Assembly (NCBI GenBank): GCA_016926705.1
Contig: JAFGOC010000036.1
Coordinates: forward strand, 1 to 56,316
From: Dehalococcoidales bacterium
GTDB lineage: Bacteria; Chloroflexota; Dehalococcoidia; Dehalococcoidales; RBG-16-60-22
Length of the DNA: 56,316 nt
Direction: 5' to 3'
The notes beneath the pieces were generated by a model. The model worked only from the letters and a program-made list of their open reading frames with translations. It was not told the DNA's origin and ran no database searches. The translations under genes were made by a program, and so were the position numbers. This document shows, piece after piece, positions 26,208 through 37,308 of this stretch (position 1 is its first letter; every line of letters starts with the position of its first letter).

Positions 26208-26582
26208 ATGAAAGGCTTTGCGAAAAAGAGCAGCAGAGGTGAAAAAGGTTTTACCCTGGTCGAGCTACTCATCGTGTTTACCTTGCTGGGTATCCTGGCC
26301 GCAATCATGATTCCTAACGTGTCGGGATTAATCGGCTATGGTCAGACACAAGGCGCCGGAGCGGAACTCTCCATCATACAGACAGCAATGGATACTATGA
26401 TGGCTAAAGAGAATCTGGATGGTGTGGACGCAGTGGACGCTGCAGCTGCTACAAGCAACATGTCCAATTTCACAGCAGCCCACCCGCTTTATCCTAATTA
26501 CGTGCGGTTTGAATCAGCCACGGGTAACTACACCTGTGACGATACCGGCCTGGTTGTACAAACTCTAACCGGCTACGAATAG
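26208..26582 (+). CDS. Type IV pilin (prepilin with class III signal peptide)
   Basis: MKGFAKKSSRGEKG|FTLVELLIVFTLLGILAAIMIPN has the canonical G/FTLxE cleavage-methylation site with Glu+5. Strong RBS aaggaggg. The mature protein is about 110 aa. Confidence 0.85.
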   Translation: MKGFAKKSSRGEKGFTLVELLIVFTLLGILAAIMIPNVSGLIGYGQTQGAGAELSIIQTAMDTMMAKENLDGVDAVDAAAATSNMSNFTAAHPLYPNYVRFESATGNYTCDDTGLVVQTLTGYE

Positions 26583-28927: not shown

Positions 28928-30104
28928 AGTATTAGTAATTGAAGACGACCCGACCTCTTTGAGGTTGATAGAGTACGCTCTTAAGCAGCGTGGCTACCAG
29001 GTCATGACTACTCTTAACGGGCTGGAAGGCATTATTACCGCCCAGAAAGAGGAGCCGGACCTTATTATCCTGGATATCATGCTGCCGGGGATTGACGGCT
29101 TCGAGGTATGCCGCCGGCTGCATTCCGGTTCGCAAACGACGAAGATACCTATTCTGATTATATCTGCCAAGACGCAAAAAGAAGATATCAACGCCGGCTT
29201 CAAGGCTGGCGCTGATGATTACCTGCTGAAACCGGCCTCCCCGACCGAAATTATTAATCGTGTGGAGAGCCTGCTTTCTAAGAAAATAACCGGCCAGGCT
29301 CGGGTGGTATCTTTTGTCAATACCAGTGAGATTCCCGGCTTGACTATGGTCATGGTGAATGTCGCGGCGGCGCTCGTAGAACAGGAAAAGCGGGTTACGC
29401 TCATCGATGCTTCAAACAGTTACAAAGGACAACCCGGTAAGAACAAAGTATCCTCTGAACAGGACGGCCGGGTCATTCTGGAGGTGGATACTAATGGTAA
29501 CGGCGGACAGGAGCCGGGACTGGAAACACTGCCTTCCGGCATAAGAGTCCTGCACGTGGACGATGTGTTTGACGATAACAATGGTGCATCAGAAGTCAGC
29601 CTCGACCTGGTGCAGAAAATCGGCAAGTCCAACGATTACCTGCTGGTTGATCTGCCCCTTAAGCCCAGTCACTTTACCACCTCGATACTTAAGAGCAGCG
29701 ACCTCGTGATGATATTAAGCGATTACCGCATCGATAACCTCATTACCACCAGGAACGCCGTTACACTGCTTAATTTCCTCGGCATTACGGCGGAAAAAAT
29801 GGCCGTCGTGCTGGCGGACTCGGAGGGCAAGAACCAGAACCTGACGACCGCCAATATGAAGCCCTTTGTGGAAGCCAACCTGGGGATTATGCTGGTGGAG
29901 GTCGTTTCTTTCGATGCCAAGATGTACCAGCTGTTCTACCTGGACAGCCAGCCTGTAATACAGTCTAATCCGAACCAGAAACTGGCCCAGGACTTAAAGC
30001 GTATCGCCCGTTACGTCGCTACTTATAGCTATACGGGGCAGGAACCCAAGCAGTCAAAAAAAGCGACTCCTCCCGCGGAGGTAAAAATTGACGCTGACAA
30101 ATAA
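28917..30104 (+). CDS. Response regulator: canonical receiver domain fused to a ParA/MinD/TadZ-like domain with a degenerate Walker A
   Basis: REC domain: VLVIEDD, DLIILDIMLPGIDG (acceptor Asp), ILIISAKT, DDYLLKP. C-terminal domain: RVVSFVNTSEIPGLTMVMVNVAAALVEQEKRVTLIDAS aligns by eye to xIAVxSxKGGVGKTTxAVNLAAAL, with both P-loop lysines replaced. A LLVDLP Walker-B-like strand is retained. Confidence 0.8.
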   Translation: MSGKVLVIEDDPTSLRLIEYALKQRGYQVMTTLNGLEGIITAQKEEPDLIILDIMLPGIDGFEVCRRLHSGSQTTKIPILIISAKTQKEDINAGFKAGADDYLLKPASPTEIINRVESLLSKKITGQARVVSFVNTSEIPGLTMVMVNVAAALVEQEKRVTLIDASNSYKGQPGKNKVSSEQDGRVILEVDTNGNGGQEPGLETLPSGIRVLHVDDVFDDNNGASEVSLDLVQKIGKSNDYLLVDLPLKPSHFTTSILKSSDLVMILSDYRIDNLITTRNAVTLLNFLGITAEKMAVVLADSEGKNQNLTTANMKPFVEANLGIMLVEVVSFDAKMYQLFYLDSQPVIQSNPNQKLAQDLKRIARYVATYSYTGQEPKQSKKATPPAEVKIDADK

Positions 30105-31776
30105 CAGGCCGAAAGGCACGCTGGGAGAATCGCTGGTCCAGAGGCAGATAATCACTGCAGAACAGCTTGAGCAAGCCCAGGAAAAACAGAAGGAGCAGGG
30201 CGGCAAGCTTAGTGAAATCCTGGTCAATATGGGTTTCGTTAAAGTTGAAGAGCTGGCATCATTCCTTAGCATCATGTGGAATGTGCCTCTAATCGACCTG
30301 AAGACACATGTGGTGCAGCCGGAAGCCCTGGCATTGATACCGGAAGAACTGGCCAGGAAGCATCTTTTTATTCCTTTACAAATCATCGGCGATTCGCTGA
30401 TGGTGGTGATGGCTGACCCCGATGACTATATTACCATCGGGGATATTTTTGCCAGGACCAATATGAAGGTGCAGGTGGCGTTTGCCAGCGCTGCGGACAT
30501 CCGGCGCGCTATAAATATTTACTACCGCGCTACCGATGAAATTCAGGAGAAGGTTAGCGAGTCCCTTCCGATAGACATCGGCGACCGGGGGTCCGCCGTT
30601 GATTTCAGTGTTGAAACACCCATCACGGAAAGCCTGGACCTGCTTATTGAACAGGCTATCAGAGACCGGGCGTCCGATATTCACCTTGAACCCCAGAACG
30701 ACCGCCTGCGTATCCGTTACCGTATCGATGGCGTACTGTATGATATGAACTCCGTGCCCATCAGTGTGCACACGGAACTGGCTTCCAGGATAAAAATACT
30801 GGCGGAAATGGACGTTACCCGCTCGAAGCAGGCACAAGACGGGCAGTTTTCTATAAAAATAGGCGATAAAAGCATCGATATCCGCGTCGCCAGCGCCGAT
30901 ACCATCCACGGCGAGCGGATTACCCTGCGTCTGCTGGATAAATCGGTATCGCTTTTTACGCTGCCGGAGTTGGGTTTTTTGCCGGATACTCTAAAAAAAT
31001 ACCGGGCGCTTTTGCACTATCCCTTTGGTATGGTTTTAGTAGGGGGCCCGACCGGTTCCGGTAAAACGACCACGCTTTATACATCGATAAATGAAATCGA
31101 CCGTAAAAGATATAACATTATGACCATCGAAGACCCGGTGGAATACCAGTTCGAGAACATCACCCAGAGTCAGGTAGACCCTAAAACCGGGATTACTTTC
31201 GCCAGCGGACTGCGGGCATCGCTGCGGCAGGACCCGGATGTCATCCTCGTGGGAGAAATCCGCGATAAAGAGACCGCCATTACCGCCGTTCAGGCCGCTC
31301 TTACCGGGCATCTGGTATTTTCGTCAATCCATGCCAATGATGCCGTCAGCATGATTACGCGCCTTCTTGACCTCGGGGTTGAGCCGGGGCTGATATCCTC
31401 AACGCTTATCGCTTTATTGGCGCAGCGCATGGTACGCCGCATCTGTACCAATTGCCGCGTTGCTGCTCCGCCCAATGCCGTGCAGCAGGAGATATACCGC
31501 AAGGAAATGGGGCAGGAATTAACTTCCGTATACAAAGGCACCGGTTGCCACCTTTGCGGCCAGACCGGCTACATGGGCAGAATCGGTATCTTTGAAATGC
31601 TCGTCATGAGTGAAGAAATACAGAAAATGCTGATTAGCGATGTCAGCATAGGGACATTAAGGGAAGAGGCGATTCGTGAAGGCATCTATACCATGAAGCA
31701 TGACGGGCTGTTGAAAGTAAAAGAAGGAATCACCACTTTCGAAGAAGTGATGAACAGCGTATTTACGATTGGGTAA
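30088..31776 (+). CDS. pilB: Type IV pilus assembly ATPase (GspE/PilB family)
   Basis: N-terminal T2SSE_N/MshEN-like helices, Walker A GGPTGSGKTTTLY, Asp/His boxes (VGEIRD, LTGHLVFSSIHAN), and a tetracysteine motif CTNC...CHLC. TTG start overlaps the upstream gene by 17 nt. Confidence 0.92.
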   Translation: MTLTNNRPKGTLGESLVQRQIITAEQLEQAQEKQKEQGGKLSEILVNMGFVKVEELASFLSIMWNVPLIDLKTHVVQPEALALIPEELARKHLFIPLQIIGDSLMVVMADPDDYITIGDIFARTNMKVQVAFASAADIRRAINIYYRATDEIQEKVSESLPIDIGDRGSAVDFSVETPITESLDLLIEQAIRDRASDIHLEPQNDRLRIRYRIDGVLYDMNSVPISVHTELASRIKILAEMDVTRSKQAQDGQFSIKIGDKSIDIRVASADTIHGERITLRLLDKSVSLFTLPELGFLPDTLKKYRALLHYPFGMVLVGGPTGSGKTTTLYTSINEIDRKRYNIMTIEDPVEYQFENITQSQVDPKTGITFASGLRASLRQDPDVILVGEIRDKETAITAVQAALTGHLVFSSIHANDAVSMITRLLDLGVEPGLISSTLIALLAQRMVRRICTNCRVAAPPNAVQQEIYRKEMGQELTSVYKGTGCHLCGQTGYMGRIGIFEMLVMSEEIQKMLISDVSIGTLREEAIREGIYTMKHDGLLKVKEGITTFEEVMNSVFTIG

Positions 31777-31806
31777 AAGGCCGTTTTTTTGTACAGGGGA
31801 ACATGA

Positions 31807-33021
31807 ATGTACCAGTATGAAGCATACACTCTTGATAAAGAGATTGTTCAGGGCACTATCGATGCTCCGAACGAAGGCGTAGCCGAGGAAAGACTCAATG
31901 GGGCCGGTTATCACCAGATATTAACTCTGAAAAAGACCTCCCCAACACTTTCCGCATCTGTCAAGAGACTGTTTCACCTCCCCTCCTCCGTAAAAAAATC
32001 AGAATTCACTGATTTTTTCTATCAACTCGCCACGCTTTTGGATTCCCGGATGCCCTTTGTGCAGGCCCTTTGGGTACTGGCCGAGCAAACCCATAATCCG
32101 GCTTTGAGGGATATTATTAGCAAGCTGGGTAGAGATGTGTCCAGTGGTATTCCTTTCTCTCTGACGCTGGGACAGTATCCTAAGCTGATATCAAGCCATT
32201 ACTGTCAGGTAATCAGGGTCAGTGAAAAATCCGGCGACCTGACGCGCGGTTTGAGACTGGTGGCCGGTTACATCGAGAAAGAGGCCTCACTAAGCGGCCA
32301 CGTTAAGCGTATGTTGTCTTATCCCTCGTTTCTGGGTTTAGCATCGCTGATTGTAATAATAATCGTGGCTACCGTAGCGGTGCCGTCTTTAACCAAGCTG
32401 TTCGATTCGCTCGGGGTTGATTTGCCCCTGGTGACGCAGATACTTGTTGCCTGCGCCGGTTTCATTACAACCTATAAGTTCCACCTTGGGGCTGGAATAC
32501 TGGCAATTATCGGTATTGTTTTCCTCATAAAAAAATCACCCGGCGCCAAGAAGTATTTAGACATGCTGGCGTTAAGTCTGCCGATTGTCAGCAATATCGT
32601 GATCATGCGTAATATCTGCCGGTTCTGCCGCAGCAGCGCTATGTTGATAGAGGCCGGTCTTACACTCCCGCAGGCACTTAATGCGATTATCGGCACGATA
32701 GACAATACCATCATAAGAAATGCGCTAAAAGAAATCCGACAGGAGACTATCAAGGGTAAAGGTCTTTGGCAGCCGATGGAGAAGTCCGGACTTTTCCCCA
32801 GGTTGCTGGTGGACGTGGTGGCTATCGGTGAAAAGAGCGGCTCTTTACAGTCCTCGTTTTCCACGATGGCGGACTATTATGAGAAAAGGCTTGACCAGAG
32901 GGTACAGAAGCTGCTTTCGATGATTGAACCGGCTTCTATTATACTCGTCGGTCTGATTATCAGTTTTATCGGTATAGCAATTATTACGCCGCTATATTCA
33001 ATATATCAGAACGTAGCCTAA
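31807..33021 (+). CDS. pilC: Type IV pilus platform protein (GspF/PilC family)
   Basis: 404 aa with two GspF-type repeats and three TM helices. The ending IITPLYSIYQ is typical of PilC/GspF. Confidence 0.9.
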   Translation: MYQYEAYTLDKEIVQGTIDAPNEGVAEERLNGAGYHQILTLKKTSPTLSASVKRLFHLPSSVKKSEFTDFFYQLATLLDSRMPFVQALWVLAEQTHNPALRDIISKLGRDVSSGIPFSLTLGQYPKLISSHYCQVIRVSEKSGDLTRGLRLVAGYIEKEASLSGHVKRMLSYPSFLGLASLIVIIIVATVAVPSLTKLFDSLGVDLPLVTQILVACAGFITTYKFHLGAGILAIIGIVFLIKKSPGAKKYLDMLALSLPIVSNIVIMRNICRFCRSSAMLIEAGLTLPQALNAIIGTIDNTIIRNALKEIRQETIKGKGLWQPMEKSGLFPRLLVDVVAIGEKSGSLQSSFSTMADYYEKRLDQRVQKLLSMIEPASIILVGLIISFIGIAIITPLYSIYQNVA

Positions 33022-33027
33022 AAAACG

Positions 33028-33435
33028 GTGTGCATAATGATAAGGATGTTAAAAAGGCTATATAAGAAAACGCAACGGCAGGGAGGCCAGAGGGGCATGA
33101 CCATGCTCGAAGGCCTGATATGCATAGGTATATTGGGCGGTGTTGTGATATTGATGGTATTCGCCATGTCCGGCGGAGCTCTGGCGGTAAATGAAAACGA
33201 GGAGGAGACGGCGGTTCAGAATCTGGCCAGAAATCAGATGGAGTATATCAAAAGCCTGGCATATAATCCTGGGGCTTCTACTTACCCTACCATAAGCACT
33301 CCGCCCGAATACAGCATTACTGTGAGTGTTACTGCGGTGCCGGATACCAACAATAACATTCAGAAGGTTACGGCGAATTTCTACCGTAATAGCACGCTCC
33401 TCATGACCGTATCAGATTATAAGGTAAACCGATGA
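33028..33435 (+). CDS. Minor pilin / pseudopilin with prepilin-type N-terminus
   Basis: ..QRG|MTMLEGLICIGILGGVVILMVF has Gly followed by Glu at +5 and a hydrophobic helix. The start is ambiguous: GTG 33028, ATG 33037 or ATG 33046. Confidence 0.65.
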   Translation: MCIMIRMLKRLYKKTQRQGGQRGMTMLEGLICIGILGGVVILMVFAMSGGALAVNENEEETAVQNLARNQMEYIKSLAYNPGASTYPTISTPPEYSITVSVTAVPDTNNNIQKVTANFYRNSTLLMTVSDYKVNR

Positions 33436-33878
33436 AAGGAGAAAGGGGATATACTCTAGTAGAAGGGCTGATAGCTATTGCCATTACCGGCTTTCTGGTG
33501 ACAGCACTTAGTATAGTGGTGCAGCAGATGGTTGTTGTGCCCGAGCGGGGTGATGACCAGATTGATGCCATTCACCCGGTGCAGAACGCAGCCCACTGGC
33601 TGACGCTTGACGGTCAGACCGCTGAATCGGCCAGCGGCGGCAGCAGCCTGATGCTGACTTTACCCAATGAGAATATCATCACCTATACGTTTTCCGGCGA
33701 TAAGCTCTTTAGACTTTACGGCAGCTCAAACCGGACGATAGCCGATAATGTCGCCAGCGCCAATTTTACCGTCCTGGACAGGGTTATTTACATGACGATT
33801 GCCACCTTGCCGGACAGTCGCTGGAATATAAGTGAAAATTATACCTACCGGGCTTATATGCGCCCGACGGAAACATAA
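33432..33878 (+). CDS. Minor pilin / pseudopilin with prepilin-type N-terminus
   Basis: MKGERG|YTLVEGLIAIAITGFLVTAL has a canonical G/xTLxE site. ATGA overlap with the upstream gene. Confidence 0.75.
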   Translation: MKGERGYTLVEGLIAIAITGFLVTALSIVVQQMVVVPERGDDQIDAIHPVQNAAHWLTLDGQTAESASGGSSLMLTLPNENIITYTFSGDKLFRLYGSSNRTIADNVASANFTVLDRVIYMTIATLPDSRWNISENYTYRAYMRPTET

Positions 33879-33881
33879 GAA

Positions 33882-35195
33882 ATGAAGATGAAGATAAACG
33901 GAGAAAAAGGCCAGGCTCTGCCACTTGCGATGATCGCCGTCATTTTGGGCGCGCTGGTGATTCCGCCCTTTGTGGGTTATGCCGGCAGCAGCATAATCGG
34001 CTCTCATGCTTACGGGGATGCTATACGCTCGCAGTATGCCGCCGACTCCGGCGCCGAGCACGCTATCTGGAGATTGACTGATGACGGCTTGATGGATATT
34101 TTAACGAGCGCCGGTAGTATGGTCAGTTATACGCTGGACGAAACTCTAAACGGCCTGACAACGAACGTAACCGTTTGTAACGCATGGCAAACTATTGCCG
34201 ATGATGACTTCAACAGTGGTGGCTGGTCGGGAGGCACAGGCTGGCTCGATGACTGGACACATTCAGGAGACAGCGCCGTAACTTCTTCCGGGAGTCCTTA
34301 TGAAGGTCCTTATCACTTGAGATTGAGGGGTGGCAGTGCGATTGCGCAACGACCCGTGGACCTTTCTCATCAGATAGATATTCATCTCCGCTTTTGGGCT
34401 AAAGTCAATTCTTTTGAAACGTGGGATACCGCTACCTGCCAGGTCAGCAGCGACGGTATAAATTGGAACACCGTCTATACTTTTACCGATGTCTTAAGTG
34501 ATGATATTTATCGTTATTATGATTTTGAGCTGTCTTCATATAAGATGACCGGCCAGTTCTGGATTTCTTTTAACTCCAATATGAGTAGCACAGGTGACTA
34601 CTTTTATGTTGATAAACTGGATATAGTATGGCTGGTGGCTAATCCCGTTACCTTTGCTACAGAAGATTTTGAAAGTGGAGGTTGGTCCGGCGGCACCGGC
34701 TGGCTTGAGGATTGGACACATACCGGTGCTTCTTCGGTTACTACCTGGAGTTCTCCTTACGAAGGCTATTATCATTTATTGCTGCAAGGTTCCAACGGTG
34801 ATGTGCAGCGCCCGGTTGACCTCTCTGCGGCCGGTATAGTCTACTTGAGATTCTGGGCTAAGGTCTCCGGTTTTGAAAGCAGGGATAATGTTGTATGCCA
34901 GGTGAGTCCCGATGGCTCAACATGGTCAACTATCTATACCTGGACGACGGCCCATGACGATAATGATTATCACTATTACGCTATCAGCCTGGCACCTTAT
35001 GAGATGACCAGCGAGTTTTGGATTCGTTTCAGTAGCAATTGTAATAATCAAAACGATTATTTCTTTGTTGATTTAATATCGCTGGTAAACCTGGATGCTT
35101 ATGGTGTAACAGCTAAAGCTGGCGATAGCATCATAAAGGCAAAGGTCTTTGTCGATTCAGGAGTTGTCACGATTATATATTGGTACTACGTTTAA
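33882..35195 (+). CDS. PilX-N-like pilus protein carrying two tandem ~145-aa beta-sandwich-like modules (putative tip adhesin)
   Basis: The N-terminus GEKGQALPLAMIAVILGALVI resembles the PilX N-terminal segment, with no Glu+5. Two internal repeats (aa ~106-249 and ~259-402, offset 153 aa) share DFxSGGWSGGTGWLxDWTH..SPYEGxYHLxL.G....QRPVDLS....LRFWAKV..FE....CQVSxDGxxWxTxYT......YY...L..YxMTxxFWIxFxSN....DYFxVD. Confidence 0.65.
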   Translation: MKMKINGEKGQALPLAMIAVILGALVIPPFVGYAGSSIIGSHAYGDAIRSQYAADSGAEHAIWRLTDDGLMDILTSAGSMVSYTLDETLNGLTTNVTVCNAWQTIADDDFNSGGWSGGTGWLDDWTHSGDSAVTSSGSPYEGPYHLRLRGGSAIAQRPVDLSHQIDIHLRFWAKVNSFETWDTATCQVSSDGINWNTVYTFTDVLSDDIYRYYDFELSSYKMTGQFWISFNSNMSSTGDYFYVDKLDIVWLVANPVTFATEDFESGGWSGGTGWLEDWTHTGASSVTTWSSPYEGYYHLLLQGSNGDVQRPVDLSAAGIVYLRFWAKVSGFESRDNVVCQVSPDGSTWSTIYTWTTAHDDNDYHYYAISLAPYEMTSEFWIRFSSNCNNQNDYFFVDLISLVNLDAYGVTAKAGDSIIKAKVFVDSGVVTIIYWYYV

Positions 35196-35230: not shown

Positions 35231-35854
35231 ATGAGTTTAAGTATAGCGGAAAGAAATAAAATTAATAAAAAGTCCCGGTCTTTGACTAACTGGCTGTGGG
35301 TGATAGGGATTATTGCCATTATCGTGGTCAATATCATCATCTGGAAAAACTATCTCGGAGAAAAATCTGAAATCGAGGTTTTACAGAATGAAATAGCGCT
35401 CGTAAACCAGCAAATTGCCCAGGCGGCGCAGCCCCCAACCAATCTTGAATCTGAATTGGAAAGAGCCCAGAGTGAACTTGCGGCAGCCCTGGAGGTTTTT
35501 CCGGAGAGAATCGACAAGACCGACGTGGTTGATTTTATTATTAATACCGCAGAAGCATGCGATGTCCGGATTATACCTCTTATATGGGAAGGACAAAAGG
35601 TTAGTGATACCGGCCAATCGTACGTAGTGCTGCAATATAGCGGAACCGTCATCGGTAAATTGACCGATGCCACCAATTTTATCACCATGCTTAGAAACGG
35701 CGATTATTCTACCATTATCATCACCGAGTGTACCGTTGAAAGGACGTCTGCACTGGATAGTGATGTATCGAGTAGTGAAATCAATGTGACCATTGACCTT
35801 GTGTTTTCTCTCTATGCCATTTCCATCCTTGACAGTAAGGATAGCATTTTATGA
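35231..35854 (+). CDS. PilO/PilN-like bitopic pilus alignment protein
   Basis: Short cytoplasmic N-terminus, one TM (WLWVIGIIAIIVVNIIIW), a coiled coil (EIEVLQNEIALVNQQIAQ...ELERAQSELAAAL), then a globular domain. Stop/start overlap with the next gene. Confidence 0.55.
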   Translation: MSLSIAERNKINKKSRSLTNWLWVIGIIAIIVVNIIIWKNYLGEKSEIEVLQNEIALVNQQIAQAAQPPTNLESELERAQSELAAALEVFPERIDKTDVVDFIINTAEACDVRIIPLIWEGQKVSDTGQSYVVLQYSGTVIGKLTDATNFITMLRNGDYSTIIITECTVERTSALDSDVSSSEINVTIDLVFSLYAISILDSKDSIL

Positions 35855-37308
35855 AAATAACGACGCTAAATATAAGCTCCAACGTAATAAAGTACGTTAC
35901 CACCAACGGCAACGGTCAGGTCAAACACGGCAGCATTACGCCGGACGGCCTTATCAATAACGGCCTGATATTACAGCCTGATGCTATCGCCAGTCAGATA
36001 AAGACCATGTTTGCTGATAACGCCCTTCCCAAGAACAAAGTTATCTGCAGCATCAATGGTCTGCCGTTTTCCTATAGGCTGTTTACCCTCCCGAAGATGG
36101 AGCCGGCGGCTTTTGATGAAGCTATTATCAGGGTAATCAGGAAAGAGATGCCCATTTCTCCGGATGAAATGTACCTGCTGTGGCAGGCTTATCCCACGGA
36201 AAATAAGGAATGGCAGGTGCTGGTGGCGGGCATAACGCGCCAGCCTGTTGATAACCTGGTGAAAACATTATCGGCAGCTGGCATCAAGCCGTATTTTCTT
36301 GACCTTCAGCATCTTTCTCTGGCCAGGTTGAGCGGTGAGTCCGATGCAATAATCGTCGAATGTGAAAAAGACTACTCCAATATCGTGATGCTGGTAGAAG
36401 GAATACCGCAGGCTTTACATATCGTTCCGTCTCTGGGGGCAGAGGCTGCTGTTAAGGATGAAATCCGCCAGGTTGTCAGCAGACTCAATAAGATGGTCAA
36501 TTTCTATAACAACAATCATCCTAAAAACCCCATTAAAGAGGATTCCAAGGTCCTGCTGACCGGCGAACTGGCAAACGAGGATGGTGTGGTAGAGCTTGTA
36601 CAGAAGGAAGTAGATTATACGGTAGAGCTTTTATCACCGGCCGACAAAGTGGTTTCCGGCATGCCTTTGCATGATTTTGCCGTTAACGCCGGCTCGATAC
36701 TCATGAAGACTGCGCCGGAAAAGGAAGCCGGCAAAGACGCTACTCCTCATCGCAGTATCAATCTCGCCAGGGTTGCCAGGCAGCTGCAAAGTATTAATAT
36801 TTCCAGTATTTCCAACGCAGTAATCGTAGGTTCGATTGCCGCTTTCGCCGGCGTCGTTGCTCTGGTATTCGGATTTTTATCGCTAAATCAAGTACGGGAA
36901 GACTTAGCTCTGGCGCAGGGGCAATTGGTCAAGGCTAATGCGGAATACAGCACCATAACAAGTACGCTCGCCGCCTCCCAGGCTGTGCAGGATAATATCG
37001 ATGAAGTTAAAGCGCAGATACATTTGATAAACGCCGATTACGAATCGATATTGAATTCGACGGATCATGTAGCCGATATTGCCGCGGTCACCCAGTCCGT
37101 TCCTGACGACCTTGTGTTTACCGATTTAGAAATTACGTCCGACCAGATTTTCGTATATGGCAGAACCTACGAGCCAGCGACGGTCGTCCAGTTCGCACGG
37201 AATCTTGAACTGATCGGCGATTTTTCCAAAGCTGATATCCAGCGTATCGACTGGGCAAACAGCACCTCCGGCCCTTCACTGTCTTTTATGATCGTTATCA
37301 ATAAATAG
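35851..37308 (+). CDS. PilM (actin-like ATPase fold) fused to a PilN-like TM/coiled-coil C-terminal region
   Basis: The N-terminal ~300 aa has PilM-like organisation (ITTLNISSNVIKYV..., AGIKPYFLDLQHLSLARL). This is followed by a TM helix (VIVGSIAAFAGVVALVFGFLSL), a coiled coil and a C-terminal domain. Confidence 0.7.
   Translation: MKITTLNISSNVIKYVTTNGNGQVKHGSITPDGLINNGLILQPDAIASQIKTMFADNALPKNKVICSINGLPFSYRLFTLPKMEPAAFDEAIIRVIRKEMPISPDEMYLLWQAYPTENKEWQVLVAGITRQPVDNLVKTLSAAGIKPYFLDLQHLSLARLSGESDAIIVECEKDYSNIVMLVEGIPQALHIVPSLGAEAAVKDEIRQVVSRLNKMVNFYNNNHPKNPIKEDSKVLLTGELANEDGVVELVQKEVDYTVELLSPADKVVSGMPLHDFAVNAGSILMKTAPEKEAGKDATPHRSINLARVARQLQSINISSISNAVIVGSIAAFAGVVALVFGFLSLNQVREDLALAQGQLVKANAEYSTITSTLAASQAVQDNIDEVKAQIHLINADYESILNSTDHVADIAAVTQSVPDDLVFTDLEITSDQIFVYGRTYEPATVVQFARNLELIGDFSKADIQRIDWANSTSGPSLSFMIVINK

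What the first reader, a model, noticed from the sequence alone, without database searches (positions are those of the whole stretch)
34197..35087. Two tandem ~145-aa modules in the PilX-like protein: candidate pilus-tip adhesin
Residues ~106-249 and ~259-402 of the 33882-35195 product are clear duplicates, offset by 153 aa. They share DFxSGGWSGGTGWLxDWTH, SPYEGxYHLxLxG, QRPVDLS, LRFWAKV, CQVSxDG..W.T.YT, FWIxFxSN and DYFxVD.

The strand-like pattern and conserved aromatic residues recall MAM / CBM / LamG-type beta-sandwiches; that fold assignment is inference only. At the DNA level the copies are well diverged, so the duplication is old and has been retained. A minor-pilin-associated protein with twin binding modules would define what the filament attaches to.
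Basis: partly seen in the sequence, partly recalled or inferred. Interest (0 to 1): 0.6.

Follow-up and report, generated by a model that had tools for sequence, protein, structure and literature searches.

The report
Pilus cap protein carrying twin sugar-binding-like modules
An uncultured Dehalococcoidales bacterium encodes, in its type IV pilus operon, a cap-type pilin-like protein with two copies of a carbohydrate-binding-module-like beta-sandwich inserted into it, which most likely sets what the pilus sticks to; this is a fresh variant of the known "modular pilin" idea, not a new principle.

Summary
Residues 104-252 and 257-405 of the 437-aa product of 33882-35195 are 55% identical (E 9e-49), and every quoted motif is present.

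AlphaFold2 models are confident (full protein pLDDT 88.5, module 96.8). Each module is a beta-jelly-roll. Its best PDB matches are glycan-chain-binding CBMs (CBM61, CBM16, CBM4-2, CBM22, a porphyran CBM; TM 0.6-0.75), then MAM and reelin domains. By sequence the family is a divergent branch of NCBIfam "choice-of-anchor J", a surface-protein domain.

The protein starts with a pilin-like leader (invariant Gly, never Glu5) and a 56-residue helix. It follows two Glu5-bearing minor pilins in a secretin-less type IV pilus operon that is syntenic across Dehalococcoidales.

The N-domain and the 32-aa C-terminal tail form a carrier. A paralogous pilus locus in a relative has the same carrier with about 52-aa repeats instead of jelly-rolls.

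Module number varies from 1 to at least 3, with duplications arising repeatedly. The same module also sits in archaeal-type pilin-like proteins and in secreted proteases.

Best reading: a GspK/PilX-position tip subunit displaying tandem lectin-like modules. Binding, ligand and tip location are untested. It is a new variant of a known kind.

The parts
33882..35195 (+). Whole gene: 437-aa cap-type (K-position) pilin-like protein with two inserted jelly-roll modules
   Evidence: ORF and translation. AF2 model has mean pLDDT 88.5 and pTM 0.73. There are 213 or more homologues, mostly from Dehalococcoidales/Chloroflexota MAGs.
33882..33911 (+). Short basic leader MKMKINGEKG ending in a conserved Gly (putative prepilin-peptidase site)
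   Evidence: Gly10 is present in 43 of 43 aligned homologues that have this region. The following residues are Q-A-L-P-L, and position +5 is Leu, Ile, Met or Val, never Glu. A prepilin peptidase gene exists on contig C15.
33912..34190 (+). Carrier N-domain (residues 11-103): hydrophobic segment plus a long alpha-1 helix (residues 12-67), then beta-strands 80-84 and 94-100
   Evidence: DSSP on the AF2 model. It is homologous to the N-domain of a second large protein that follows two N_methyl pilins on contig C4 (35% identity, E 5e-11). It is also homologous to the ~504-aa family P0266-P0282 (49% identity, E 2e-25).
34191..34637 (+). Module 1 (residues 104-252): beta-jelly-roll, CBM-like, divergent choice-of-anchor J type
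   Evidence: AF2 pLDDT 96.8 and pTM 0.91. Foldseek PDB hits: CBM61 2xon (E 1.5e-7, TM 0.68), porphyran CBM 8xmz (TM 0.70/0.75, rmsd 2.8 A), and CBM16, CBM4-2, CBM22 and MAM.
34650..35096 (+). Module 2 (residues 257-405): second copy, 55% identical to module 1
   Evidence: The full-length model's best PDB match is the tandem CBM22-1/CBM22-2 of Xyn10C, 4xup (E 3.8e-13). Weak choice_anch_J hit at 12.8 bits.
35097..35192 (+). Carrier C-terminal tail (residues 406-437): three beta-strands, with Trp434 invariant
   Evidence: DSSP strands 406-413, 416-425 and 428-436. The tail is conserved after 1, 2 or 3 modules. A profile of the tail hits the extreme C-terminus of the repeat-cargo paralogues P0282 (38.2 bits) and P0266 (19.1 bits).
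33028..33435 (+). Minor pilin 1 (G|MTMLEGLI, has Glu5), weakly PilV/GspI/ComGE-like
   Evidence: Sequence. NCBIfam sub-threshold hits: PilV 5e-5, ComGE 2.4e-4, GspI 0.03.
33432..33878 (+). Minor pilin 2 (G|YTLVEGLI, has Glu5), N_methyl motif, weakly ComGF/GspJ-like
   Evidence: Pfam N_methyl at 27.4 bits, above the cut-off. NCBIfam sub-threshold hits to ComGF, GspI and GspJ.
26208..26582 (+). Candidate major pilin (GEKG|FTLVELLIV)
   Evidence: N_methyl hit at 35.1 bits in the own-genome search. ORF. The same position is occupied by an N_methyl gene in the syntenic locus L006.
30088..33021 (+). PilB-type assembly ATPase (30088-31776) and PilC-type platform protein (31807-33021)
   Evidence: Pfam T2SSE 4.6e-120 plus MshEN; T2SSF 4.2e-51.
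35231..37308 (+). PilO-like bitopic protein (35231-35854) and PilM-PilN fusion (35851-37308)
   Evidence: Pfam PilN 28.3 bits, PilM_2 26.3 bits; NCBIfam pilM 7.5e-11. The same genes follow the homologue in L006, L008 and about 30 other loci.

Best explanation
The 33882-35195 product is the cap (K-position, GspK/PilX-like) subunit of a monoderm-type type IV pilus in an uncultured Dehalococcoidales bacterium.

Its pilin-like carrier has four parts:
- a short leader ending in Gly;
- a hydrophobic alpha-1 helix without Glu5;
- a few beta-strands;
- a 32-aa C-terminal tail that returns to the carrier.

The carrier is interrupted by cargo: two tandem 149-aa beta-jelly-roll modules. These have the carbohydrate-binding-module / MAM ('galactose-binding-like') fold and are divergent relatives of the 'choice-of-anchor J' surface domain.

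Inferred mechanism:
1. The protein associates through its helix with the two upstream Glu5-bearing minor pilins to form the priming complex.
2. Because it lacks Glu5 and is bulky, it stays at the distal tip as the major pilin polymerises beneath it.
3. It presents two lectin-like modules that bind an extracellular polymer, most likely a glycan chain. Two copies would add avidity.
4. PilT-like ATPases encoded elsewhere in the genome could then retract the pilus against the bound substrate.

What is shown here: the repeat, the fold, the locus, the N-terminal signature, the carrier-plus-swappable-cargo architecture, and the extracellular distribution of the module. What is inferred: tip location, incorporation into the filament, binding, and the ligand class.
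For: Repeat:
- 55% identity, E 9e-49.

Fold:
- AF2 pLDDT is 88.5 for the full protein and 96.8 for the module.
- Foldseek gives probability 1.0 to tandem CBM22 (4xup, E 3.8e-13).
- The module alone matches CBM61, CBM16, the porphyran CBM 8xmz, CBM4-2, CBM22, MAM of enteropeptidase and LAST-MAM, and reelin (TM 0.6-0.75).
- Sub-threshold Pfam hits among family members all point to the same fold class: F5_F8_type_C_2 in 12 of 45, plus MAM, Endotoxin_C and CBM_4_9.
- NCBIfam choice_anch_J is hit by 15 of 45 members. P0081 reaches 46.8 bits against a 30-bit cut-off, across the whole module.

Pilus context:
- The gene order is major pilin, HK, REC-ParA-like, PilB, PilC, two Glu5 pilins, this gene, PilO-like, PilM-N.
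- The order is fully syntenic in a 53%-identical relative and in about 30 of 56 genome loci.

Pilin-like features:
- A 56-residue N-terminal helix.
- Invariant Gly at -1 and no Glu at +5 in any of 45 homologues. Absence of Glu5 is the hallmark of the K subunit (PMC9934059).

Carrier with inserted cargo:
- The C-terminal tail is kept after 1, 2 or 3 modules.
- The tail is also kept in the ~504-aa paralogues, where about 52-aa repeats replace the jelly-rolls.
- One such paralogue sits in a second complete pilus locus on the same 1.47-Mb contig as a two-module orthologue.

The module is an extracellular, filament-associated domain:
- It is also embedded in DUF7289 archaeal-type pilin-like proteins in a Pilin_N/TadA/TadBC-type locus.
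- It occurs in a giant N_methyl protein, and in S8-protease, PKD and Ig-domain proteins.

Supporting genes: a prepilin peptidase and PilT-like ATPases are present in the genome.

Precedent: S. sanguinis PilC is a pilin with a lectin module that binds glycans, and sits in a tip complex (PMC9934059). Modular pilins are widespread (PMC8179133).
Against: - No binding, localisation or expression data exist.
- The window's own protein matches no curated pilin model: not N_methyl, PilX_N or T2SSK.
- Its own modules score below the choice_anch_J cut-off: 12.8 bits for module 2 and nothing for module 1.
- Profile searches of PDB sequences find nothing significant, so no CAZy CBM family membership can be claimed.
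- A CBM-like fold does not prove sugar binding. MAM and reelin domains of the same fold bind proteins.
- The packing of the C-tail strands onto the N-domain could not be inspected because model coordinates are not exposed.
- +1 Gln is unusual for a prepilin peptidase substrate, so the protein might remain an uncleaved membrane anchor.
- The I- and J-like assignments of the two upstream pilins rest on sub-threshold hits.
Confidence: 0.6

Rival explanations
1. Same tip subunit, but the modules bind protein rather than carbohydrate. They could act homophilically or against another cell's surface layer, as MAM domains do, so that the pilus mediates cell-cell aggregation or syntrophic partner contact rather than attachment to polysaccharide.
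For: MAM domains (enteropeptidase, LAST-MAM, meprin) and reelin subrepeats are among the significant fold matches. Pfam MAM or InhA-like_MAM is hit by some family members and related proteins. The curated relative, choice-of-anchor J, has no assigned ligand.
Against: The best single-module matches by E-value and TM-score are glycan-chain-binding CBMs, and the best full-length match is a tandem CBM22. The only near-significant PDB sequence-profile hit is a porphyran-binding CBM.
Confidence: 0.15
2. A purely structural cap or priming subunit. The jelly-rolls serve only as a bulky plug that initiates assembly and blocks further addition, much as the GspK alpha-domain has no known ligand.
For: The K position, the absence of Glu5 and the inserted-domain topology parallel GspK (PMC8179133 discussion). 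Modules 1 and 2 share the same 37 conserved positions and have no fixed differences, which could reflect structural rather than ligand constraint.
Against: The cargo is swapped between paralogous pilus loci (jelly-rolls versus ~52-aa repeats versus larger inserts) and varies in copy number. This pattern is expected for a specificity determinant, not a plug. The same module is reused on unrelated secreted enzymes and on archaeal-type pilins. Its most conserved segment is a Gly/Trp-rich surface loop rather than a strand.
Confidence: 0.12
3. Not a filament subunit. It would be an uncleaved, membrane-anchored component of the machine whose lectin-like modules hold the apparatus to the cell's own S-layer or envelope glycans. 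That would be a functional substitute for the missing PilP/PilQ-type outer parts in a wall-less monoderm.
For: There is no N_methyl or PilX_N match, and +1 is Gln. The gene lies directly before the PilO-like and PilM-N alignment genes. One homologue was labelled TadG by its source. By my recollection TadG is membrane-anchored.
Against: Gly at -1 is invariant and follows a short basic leader, as in prepilins. The continuous 56-residue helix followed by a small sheet is the pilin trademark. The gene is translationally packed with the two minor pilins: 33432/33435 overlap and a 3-base gap at 33878/33882. The same module occurs on bona fide class-III-signal proteins of another filament type.
Confidence: 0.1

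Closest known systems
GspK / PilX-type 'K' subunit of the HIJK (or GspI-J-K) tip complex of type 4 filaments
   Same: It is the last gene of a minor-pilin set. It has a pilin-like N-terminal helix and lacks Glu5. It is the largest of the set because an extra domain is inserted within the pilin fold, so it can only sit at the tip (PMC9934059, PMC8179133).
   Different: There is no sequence match to PilX_N or T2SSK models. Only two, not three, partner minor pilins precede it. The inserted cargo is one to three beta-jelly-roll lectin-like modules rather than the GspK alpha-domain. The system is a secretin-less monoderm type.
Streptococcus sanguinis PilC (and PilB): modular pilins of the PilABC tip complex
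   Same: A functional module not specific to pilus biology is carried by a small pilin moiety in a monoderm type IV pilus. In PilC the module is a lectin that binds glycans, shown experimentally (PMC9934059). The general principle of modular pilins is in PMC8179133.
   Different: PilC has a canonical class III signal with Glu5. Its ConA-like module, a different fold, is appended C-terminally after an Ig-like domain. Here the carrier is Glu5-less, the cargo is a CBM4/16/22/61-like jelly-roll in tandem, and the cargo is inserted so that the chain returns to the carrier. No binding data exist here.
NCBIfam NF038128 'choice-of-anchor J' domain
   Same: Family members P0081, P0106 and P0094 pass the curated 30-bit cut-off over the whole module, and 15 of 45 members hit it. 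It is a surface-protein domain, as here.
   Different: The window's own modules fall below the cut-off: 12.8 bits and no hit. By my recollection, choice-of-anchor domains are defined by alternative C-terminal sorting signals. Here the 'anchor' is a pilin-like carrier. No function is assigned to the family.
Glycan-chain-binding carbohydrate-binding modules: CBM61 (2xon), CBM16 (2zey), CBM4-2 (1k42), CBM22 tandem (4xup), porphyran-binding CBM (8xmz)
   Same: Same beta-jelly-roll fold, at TM 0.6-0.75 and Foldseek probability 1.0. The tandem arrangement resembles CBM22-1/CBM22-2.
   Different: Sequence identity is 13-21%. There is no significant sequence-profile match (best E 0.34). The module has a distinctive, highly conserved Gly/Trp-rich loop (SGGWSGGTGWLxDW) after strand 1. 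Ligand-binding residues could not be compared. It is not attached to a glycoside hydrolase.

Membership tests
Type IV pilin (class III signal peptide, Pfam PF07963 / TIGR02532) | Match to the N-terminal methylation motif model | tested here: not met
   P0001 has no N_methyl hit in Pfam or NCBIfam. The own-genome scan with PF07963 finds the two neighbouring pilins but not this gene.
Type IV pilin (class III signal peptide) | Short basic leader ending in Gly, followed by a hydrophobic stretch of about 20 aa and a long alpha-1 helix | tested here: met
   MKMKINGEKG|QALPLAMIAVILGALVIPPFVG. The Gly is invariant in 43 of 43 homologues. The AF2 helix spans residues 12-67.
K-type minor pilin (GspK/PilX) | Lacks Glu5 while the partner minor pilins keep it | tested here: met
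   Position +5 is Leu, Ile, Met or Val in all 45 homologues. The upstream pilins read G|MTMLE and G|YTLVE.
K-type minor pilin (GspK/PilX) | Sequence match to PilX_N (PF14341) or T2SSK models | tested here: not met
   No hit for P0001 or any of the 45 homologues. The genome scan with PF14341 hits only the C4 paralogue, at 17.8 bits against a 25.5-bit cut-off. That paralogue shares the N-domain with P0001 (E 5e-11).
K-type minor pilin (GspK/PilX) | Extra domain inserted into the pilin fold, with the chain returning to the pilin sheet | tested here: inconclusive
   The C-terminal 32-aa three-strand tail is conserved whatever the cargo: 1 to 3 jelly-rolls, or ~52-aa repeats. Model coordinates could not be inspected to confirm that the tail pairs with strands 80-100.
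K-type minor pilin (GspK/PilX) | Encoded after I- and J-like minor pilins in one operon | tested here: inconclusive
   Two pilin genes directly precede it, with overlapping or abutting reading frames. Their I/J-likeness rests on sub-threshold NCBIfam hits: PilV 5e-5, GspI, ComGF, GspJ.
Modular pilin (sensu Raynaud et al. 2021, PMC8179133) | Pilin moiety plus a module that also occurs outside pilus biology | tested here: met
   The module is found in an S8 protease with PKD domains, in LamG+Kelch proteins and in Ig-domain giants, as well as in pilus-locus proteins.
Choice-of-anchor J domain (NCBIfam NF038128) | Score of at least 30 bits against the curated model | tested here: not met
   The window's module 2 scores 12.8 bits and module 1 gives no hit. 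Homologues of the same family pass: P0081 46.8, P0106 38.5, P0094 32.9 bits. It is therefore a divergent relative, not a scoring member.
Galactose-binding-domain-like / CBM beta-jelly-roll fold | Structural superposition on solved members | tested here: met
   Foldseek probability 1.0 and TM 0.60-0.75 to CBM61, CBM16, CBM4-2, CBM22 and 8xmz; 219 PDB chains at E <= 1e-3.
A specific CAZy CBM family (e.g. CBM22, CBM61) | Significant sequence similarity to family members | tested here: not met
   phmmer and hmmsearch against all PDB sequences give no hit below E 0.34. Pfam CBM_4_9 is hit by 1 of 45 members, at 0.0027.
MAM domain (PF00629) | Pfam model match | tested here: not met
   No hit for the window protein. 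Two of 45 homologues hit, best at 7.9e-6. Fold similarity to MAM is present.
LamG / ConA-like lectin | Fold or sequence match | tested here: not met
   No LamG or ConA-like entry appears among the top 50 Foldseek matches of either model, and there is no Pfam hit.
Adhesin / lectin (functional class) | Demonstrated ligand binding | not testable with these tools
   Requires purified protein and binding assays.

The most novel reading that the evidence does not exclude
Dehalococcoidia would use a dedicated Glu5-less carrier (N-domain plus C-tail) as a plug-in socket for the pilus tip. Different cargo would be inserted into it: 1 to at least 3 jelly-rolls, a propeller-like repeat array, or 400-700-aa inserts. 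These would be exchanged between paralogous pilus loci. The same jelly-roll cassette would also have been grafted independently onto archaeal-type (Pilin_N/DUF7289) filament subunits in related genomes. On this reading there is a shared, mobile adhesin cassette moving between two different type IV filament classes, aimed at a common and abundant ligand of anoxic sediments or peat.
Probability: 0.3. Interest if true: 0.6.

Novelty: new variant of a known kind. Interest (0 to 1): 0.45.

Why it matters
Type IV pili of uncultured Dehalococcoidia are unstudied, and what they attach to is unknown. This protein gives a concrete, expressible candidate for the specificity determinant.

It also extends the 'modular pilin' concept to Glu5-less cap subunits. 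Motif-based surveys that rely on IPR012902 cannot see these subunits. The cargo here is inserted rather than appended, and it is swappable and variable in copy number.

If the ligand is a plant or microbial polysaccharide, or a partner's surface, it would say how these slow-growing anaerobes hold on to substrates or syntrophic partners. The conceptual advance is moderate, because lectin-bearing tip pilins and an inserted-domain K subunit are both already known.

Tried and rejected
- Sequence searches of the full protein, the family profile and the module profile against all PDB chains gave nothing significant. The best was E 0.34 to 8xmz.
- A Pfam scan of the window protein alone gave only a sub-threshold F5_F8_type_C_2 hit. 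NCBIfam gave nothing.
- A PilX_N scan of the whole genome did not hit this gene.
- I looked for positions fixed differently in module 1 and module 2, as a sign of divergent specificity, within the 17-protein clade of the window. There were none, against 37 shared conserved positions. I make no claim that the two copies bind different ligands.
- Literature searches on Dehalococcoidia or Dehalococcoides pili, on choice-of-anchor J and on CBM-bearing minor pilins found nothing on this family.
- The weak 'tapirin' NCBIfam hits in 2 of 45 members (5e-4) were not pursued. By my recollection tapirins have a different fold.
- The LamG reading was rejected for lack of any match.
- The model coordinates are not exposed, so the C-tail/N-domain packing and the ligand cleft could not be examined.
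Full report
**1. The observation**

The ORF 33882-35195 (+) encodes a 437-aa protein. Residues 104-252 and 257-405 align without a gap at an offset of 153 residues. Identity is 83/150 (55%), BLASTP E = 9e-49. Shuffled copies never exceed 15% identity.

At the DNA level the copies are 58% identical, and 44% at third codon positions. This is therefore not a recent duplication or an assembly artefact. A profile of the module finds exactly these two copies in the 1.73-Mb genome.

**2. Fold of the module**

An AlphaFold2 model of the whole protein, built on 45 homologues, has mean pLDDT 88.5 and pTM 0.73. A model of module 1 alone, built on 36 module sequences, has pLDDT 96.8 and pTM 0.91. Each module is a sandwich of nine main strands.

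Foldseek results against the PDB:
- The full model matches best to the tandem CBM22-1/CBM22-2 of Xyn10C (4xup, E 3.8e-13). Next come reelin repeats, the CBM-like domains of GH101 enzymes, Cry protoxins and Vip3, and MAM-containing proteases.
- The single module matches CBM61 (2xon, E 1.5e-7, TM 0.68), CBM16 (2zey), a porphyran-binding CBM (8xmz, TM 0.70/0.75, rmsd 2.8 A), CBM4-2 and CBM22. MAM and reelin follow.

By my own knowledge, these are the beta-jelly-rolls of the galactose-binding-domain-like superfamily, and the top CBM families bind single glycan chains in a cleft on the concave sheet.

Sequence evidence agrees but is weak for the window protein itself:
- Pfam gives only a sub-threshold F5_F8_type_C_2 hit for the window protein.
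- Among 45 family members, 12 hit F5_F8_type_C_2, 2 hit MAM, 2 hit Endotoxin_C and 1 hits CBM_4_9.
- NCBIfam is more informative. Fifteen of 45 members hit 'choice-of-anchor J' (NF038128). P0081, P0106 and P0094 score above the curated 30-bit cut-off over the entire module.
- The window's module 2 reaches 12.8 bits and module 1 reaches nothing.

The module is thus a divergent branch of a curated surface-protein domain of unknown function. No PDB sequence is significantly similar.

**3. The rest of the protein**

The N-terminus reads MKMKINGEKG|QALPLAMIAVILGALVIPPFVG. In 45 homologues the Gly is invariant. The residue after it is usually Gln, and position +5 is always hydrophobic and never Glu.

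The model gives one continuous helix from residue 12 to 67, then strands 80-84 and 94-100, then the two modules, then three strands at 406-436. A long N-terminal helix is the pilin trademark. Absence of Glu5 is the mark of the K subunit that caps the minor-pilin tip complex (PMC9934059).

The protein does not match N_methyl, PilX_N or T2SSK models.

**4. The locus**

On one strand, tightly packed, lie:
- a candidate major pilin (26208-26582);
- a histidine kinase;
- a receiver-ParA-like protein;
- PilB and PilC;
- two small pilins with G|MTMLE and G|YTLVE N-termini;
- this gene;
- a PilO-like gene;
- a PilM-PilN fusion.

There is no secretin. The whole order is conserved around a 53%-identical orthologue on a 1.47-Mb Dehalococcoidia contig. 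It is also conserved in about 30 of 56 genome loci recovered with the module profile.

The genome also encodes a prepilin peptidase and PilT-like ATPases on other contigs. The two upstream pilins give sub-threshold hits to PilV/GspI/ComGE and to ComGF/GspJ respectively.

**5. Carrier and cargo**

Three observations show that the N-domain and the C-terminal tail form a carrier into which cargo is inserted.

- *Same ends, different module number.* Orthologues with one module (about 280 aa), two modules (about 435 aa) and at least three modules (P0106; Zixibacteria-labelled L028) all keep the same N-domain and the same tail, YG(I/V)..(K/R)AGD..(I/L)KA.V......V...(S/Y)W.
- *Same ends, different cargo.* A search with residues 1-103 alone recovers a second family of about 504 aa (P0266-P0282). 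It has a 49%-identical N-domain (E 2e-25) and a matching extreme C-terminal tail (profile scores 38.2 and 19.1 bits). Between these ends it carries tandem repeats at a spacing of about 52 aa (six matches to the AI[AV]Y motif in P0282) instead of jelly-rolls. One of these proteins, P0282, sits after two small pilin-size genes (one with a weak N_methyl hit), PilB and PilC, and before PilO-like, PilM-N and a PilT-like ATPase. This is a second pilus locus on the same contig as the two-module orthologue P0038.
- *A paralogue in the window's own genome.* Contig C4 carries a PAS kinase, a receiver-HD-GYP protein, two N_methyl pilins and an 822-aa protein. The N-domain of that protein is 35% identical to this one (E 5e-11) and gives a sub-threshold PilX_N hit.

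Larger variants of about 1,100 aa, with the N-domain and two modules, also occur in pilus loci (L054, L060, L061).

**6. History of the duplication**

I built a maximum-likelihood tree of 96 modules. In the window's clade (17 proteins, down to about 50% identity), the second modules form one well-supported clade (98/94). The first modules group apart from them. In that clade the duplication therefore predates the divergence of the orthologues.

In P0076, P0081, P0079, P0064, P0059/P0070 and P0106, the modules of one protein are each other's closest relatives. That indicates independent duplication or gene conversion.

Within the window's clade the two modules share 37 conserved positions and show no fixed differences.

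**7. Distribution**

The module alone hits 730 cluster representatives (E <= 1e-3) among 1.84 billion proteins. It occurs in proteins of 136 to 4,771 aa, with 1 to 11 copies.

Partner domains, apart from the N-methyl motif of one giant protein, are extracellular ones:
- S8 subtilase, PKD and fn3;
- LamG and Kelch;
- Ig-like domains;
- an N-methyl motif on one giant protein.

Named genomes are mostly Dehalococcoidia. There are scattered Zixibacteria, Planctomycetota, Verrucomicrobiota, Pontiella and archaeal hits.

A notable second context is a family of 570-620-aa proteins in Dehalococcoidia MAGs. They have an archaeal-type class III N-terminus (RG|VSVVIGAILML) and a DUF7289 region, with one embedded module. 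In L024 the gene lies next to a Pilin_N pilin, a TadA-like ATPase and two TadB/C-like genes.

Prevalence of the module:
- 13 of 18 genomes of the window's genus. Of the five without a strong match, four are 56-88% complete and one (G211, 95% complete) has only a weak partial match.
- 5 of 19 other genera of the family.
- 9 of 201 genomes sampled evenly across the class.

**8. Interpretation**

The best-supported reading is a K-position, Glu5-less cap subunit whose pilin-like carrier displays two lectin-like jelly-rolls at the pilus tip.

| Step | Status |
|---|---|
| Complex formation with the two upstream pilins | Inferred |
| Priming of assembly | Inferred |
| Tip retention | Inferred |
| Multivalent binding of an extracellular polymer, most likely a glycan chain | Inferred |
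| Optional retraction by PilT-like ATPases | Inferred |

These steps are inferred from the established behaviour of GspK/PilX-type subunits and from S. sanguinis PilC, a pilin with a glycan-binding lectin module in a tip complex (PMC9934059, PMC8179133).

Rivals:
- a protein ligand or homophilic contact (MAM-like);
- a purely structural cap;
- an uncleaved membrane-anchored machine component that grips the cell's own envelope.

None of these is excluded by sequence analysis alone.

**9. Comparison and novelty**

Lectin-bearing modular pilins and an inserted-domain K subunit are both known. What differs here is:
- the two features occur together in one protein;
- the cargo type is a CBM-like relative of choice-of-anchor J, in tandem;
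- the copy number varies;
- the cargo is evidently swapped between paralogous pilus loci;
- the same module is reused on archaeal-type filament subunits.

The carrier lacks the IPR012902 motif. It would therefore be invisible to the published motif-based census of modular pilins (PMC8179133). I rate it a new variant of a known kind, of moderate interest.

**10. Limits**

- The I/J assignments of the partner pilins are sub-threshold.
- The genome is a 79%-complete MAG.

Noticed in passing
own genome, contig C4 (L075:82-5936): A second 'two N_methyl pilins plus large Glu5-less protein' cassette. It comprises a PAS histidine kinase, a receiver-HD-GYP protein, pilins of 116 and 175 aa, and an 822-aa protein. 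That protein's N-domain is 35% identical to the N-domain of this finding's protein (E 5e-11) and gives a sub-threshold PilX_N hit. No PilB or PilC lies next to it on this 9.3-kb contig.
   Followed up: partly
L076:3231-11856 (same 1.47-Mb contig as L006): A relative carries two paralogous pilus loci. One has the two-jelly-roll cap protein (P0038). The other has the same carrier with tandem repeats at a spacing of about 52 aa (P0282, 503 aa; propeller-like by inference), plus a PilT-like ATPase. The repeats match no Pfam family.
   Followed up: partly
L024:1337-6984 (also L019, L023, L030, L043): The same jelly-roll module is embedded in 570-620-aa DUF7289 proteins with an archaeal-type class III N-terminus. 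In L024 the gene sits in a locus with a Pilin_N pilin, a TadA-like ATPase, two TadB/C-like genes and two receiver proteins. This is a second, archaeal/Tad-type filament system in Dehalococcoidia that uses the same module.
   Followed up: partly
L038 and L039 (also G187:C322:11522-13986): Three consecutive genes each carry one copy of the module (about 766/715, 340/338 and 431/426 aa). The last has the carrier N-domain. L039 has a major-pilin-like neighbour.
   Followed up: no
L054, L060, L061: Cap proteins of about 1,100 aa with the carrier N-domain, two modules and about 700 further residues that match no Pfam family, all inside pilus loci.
   Followed up: no
L028 (MAG labelled candidate division Zixibacteria RBG_16_53_22): A syntenic pilus locus (HK, REC-ParA-like, PilB, PilC, two pilins) whose cap protein has at least three modules, in a genome labelled as another phylum. 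This reflects either horizontal transfer or a mis-binned contig.
   Followed up: no
own genome, contig C15 (1-957, 4328-5149, 7472-7540, 8209-8547): Another pilus-related cluster: a PilB-like fragment at the contig start, a PilT-size ATPase, an N_methyl pilin (the best-scoring one in the genome) and the only prepilin peptidase gene found.
   Followed up: no
window 33882-35195 family: Two of 45 family members give weak NCBIfam hits (5e-4) to 'tapirin'. By my recollection tapirins are the cellulose-binding proteins encoded next to the Caldicellulosiruptor pilus locus. The hits are probably compositional, but the functional parallel is worth a look.
   Followed up: no
window 34209-34256 and 34668-34715 (module residues 7-22): The most conserved segment of the module is not a strand. 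It is a Gly/Trp-rich loop, F.SGGWSGGTGWL.DW, lying between strand 1 and strand 2. G14, G15, W18 and W22 are invariant in 36 modules. It is a candidate functional or metal-binding loop with no counterpart noted in the matched CBMs.
   Followed up: no
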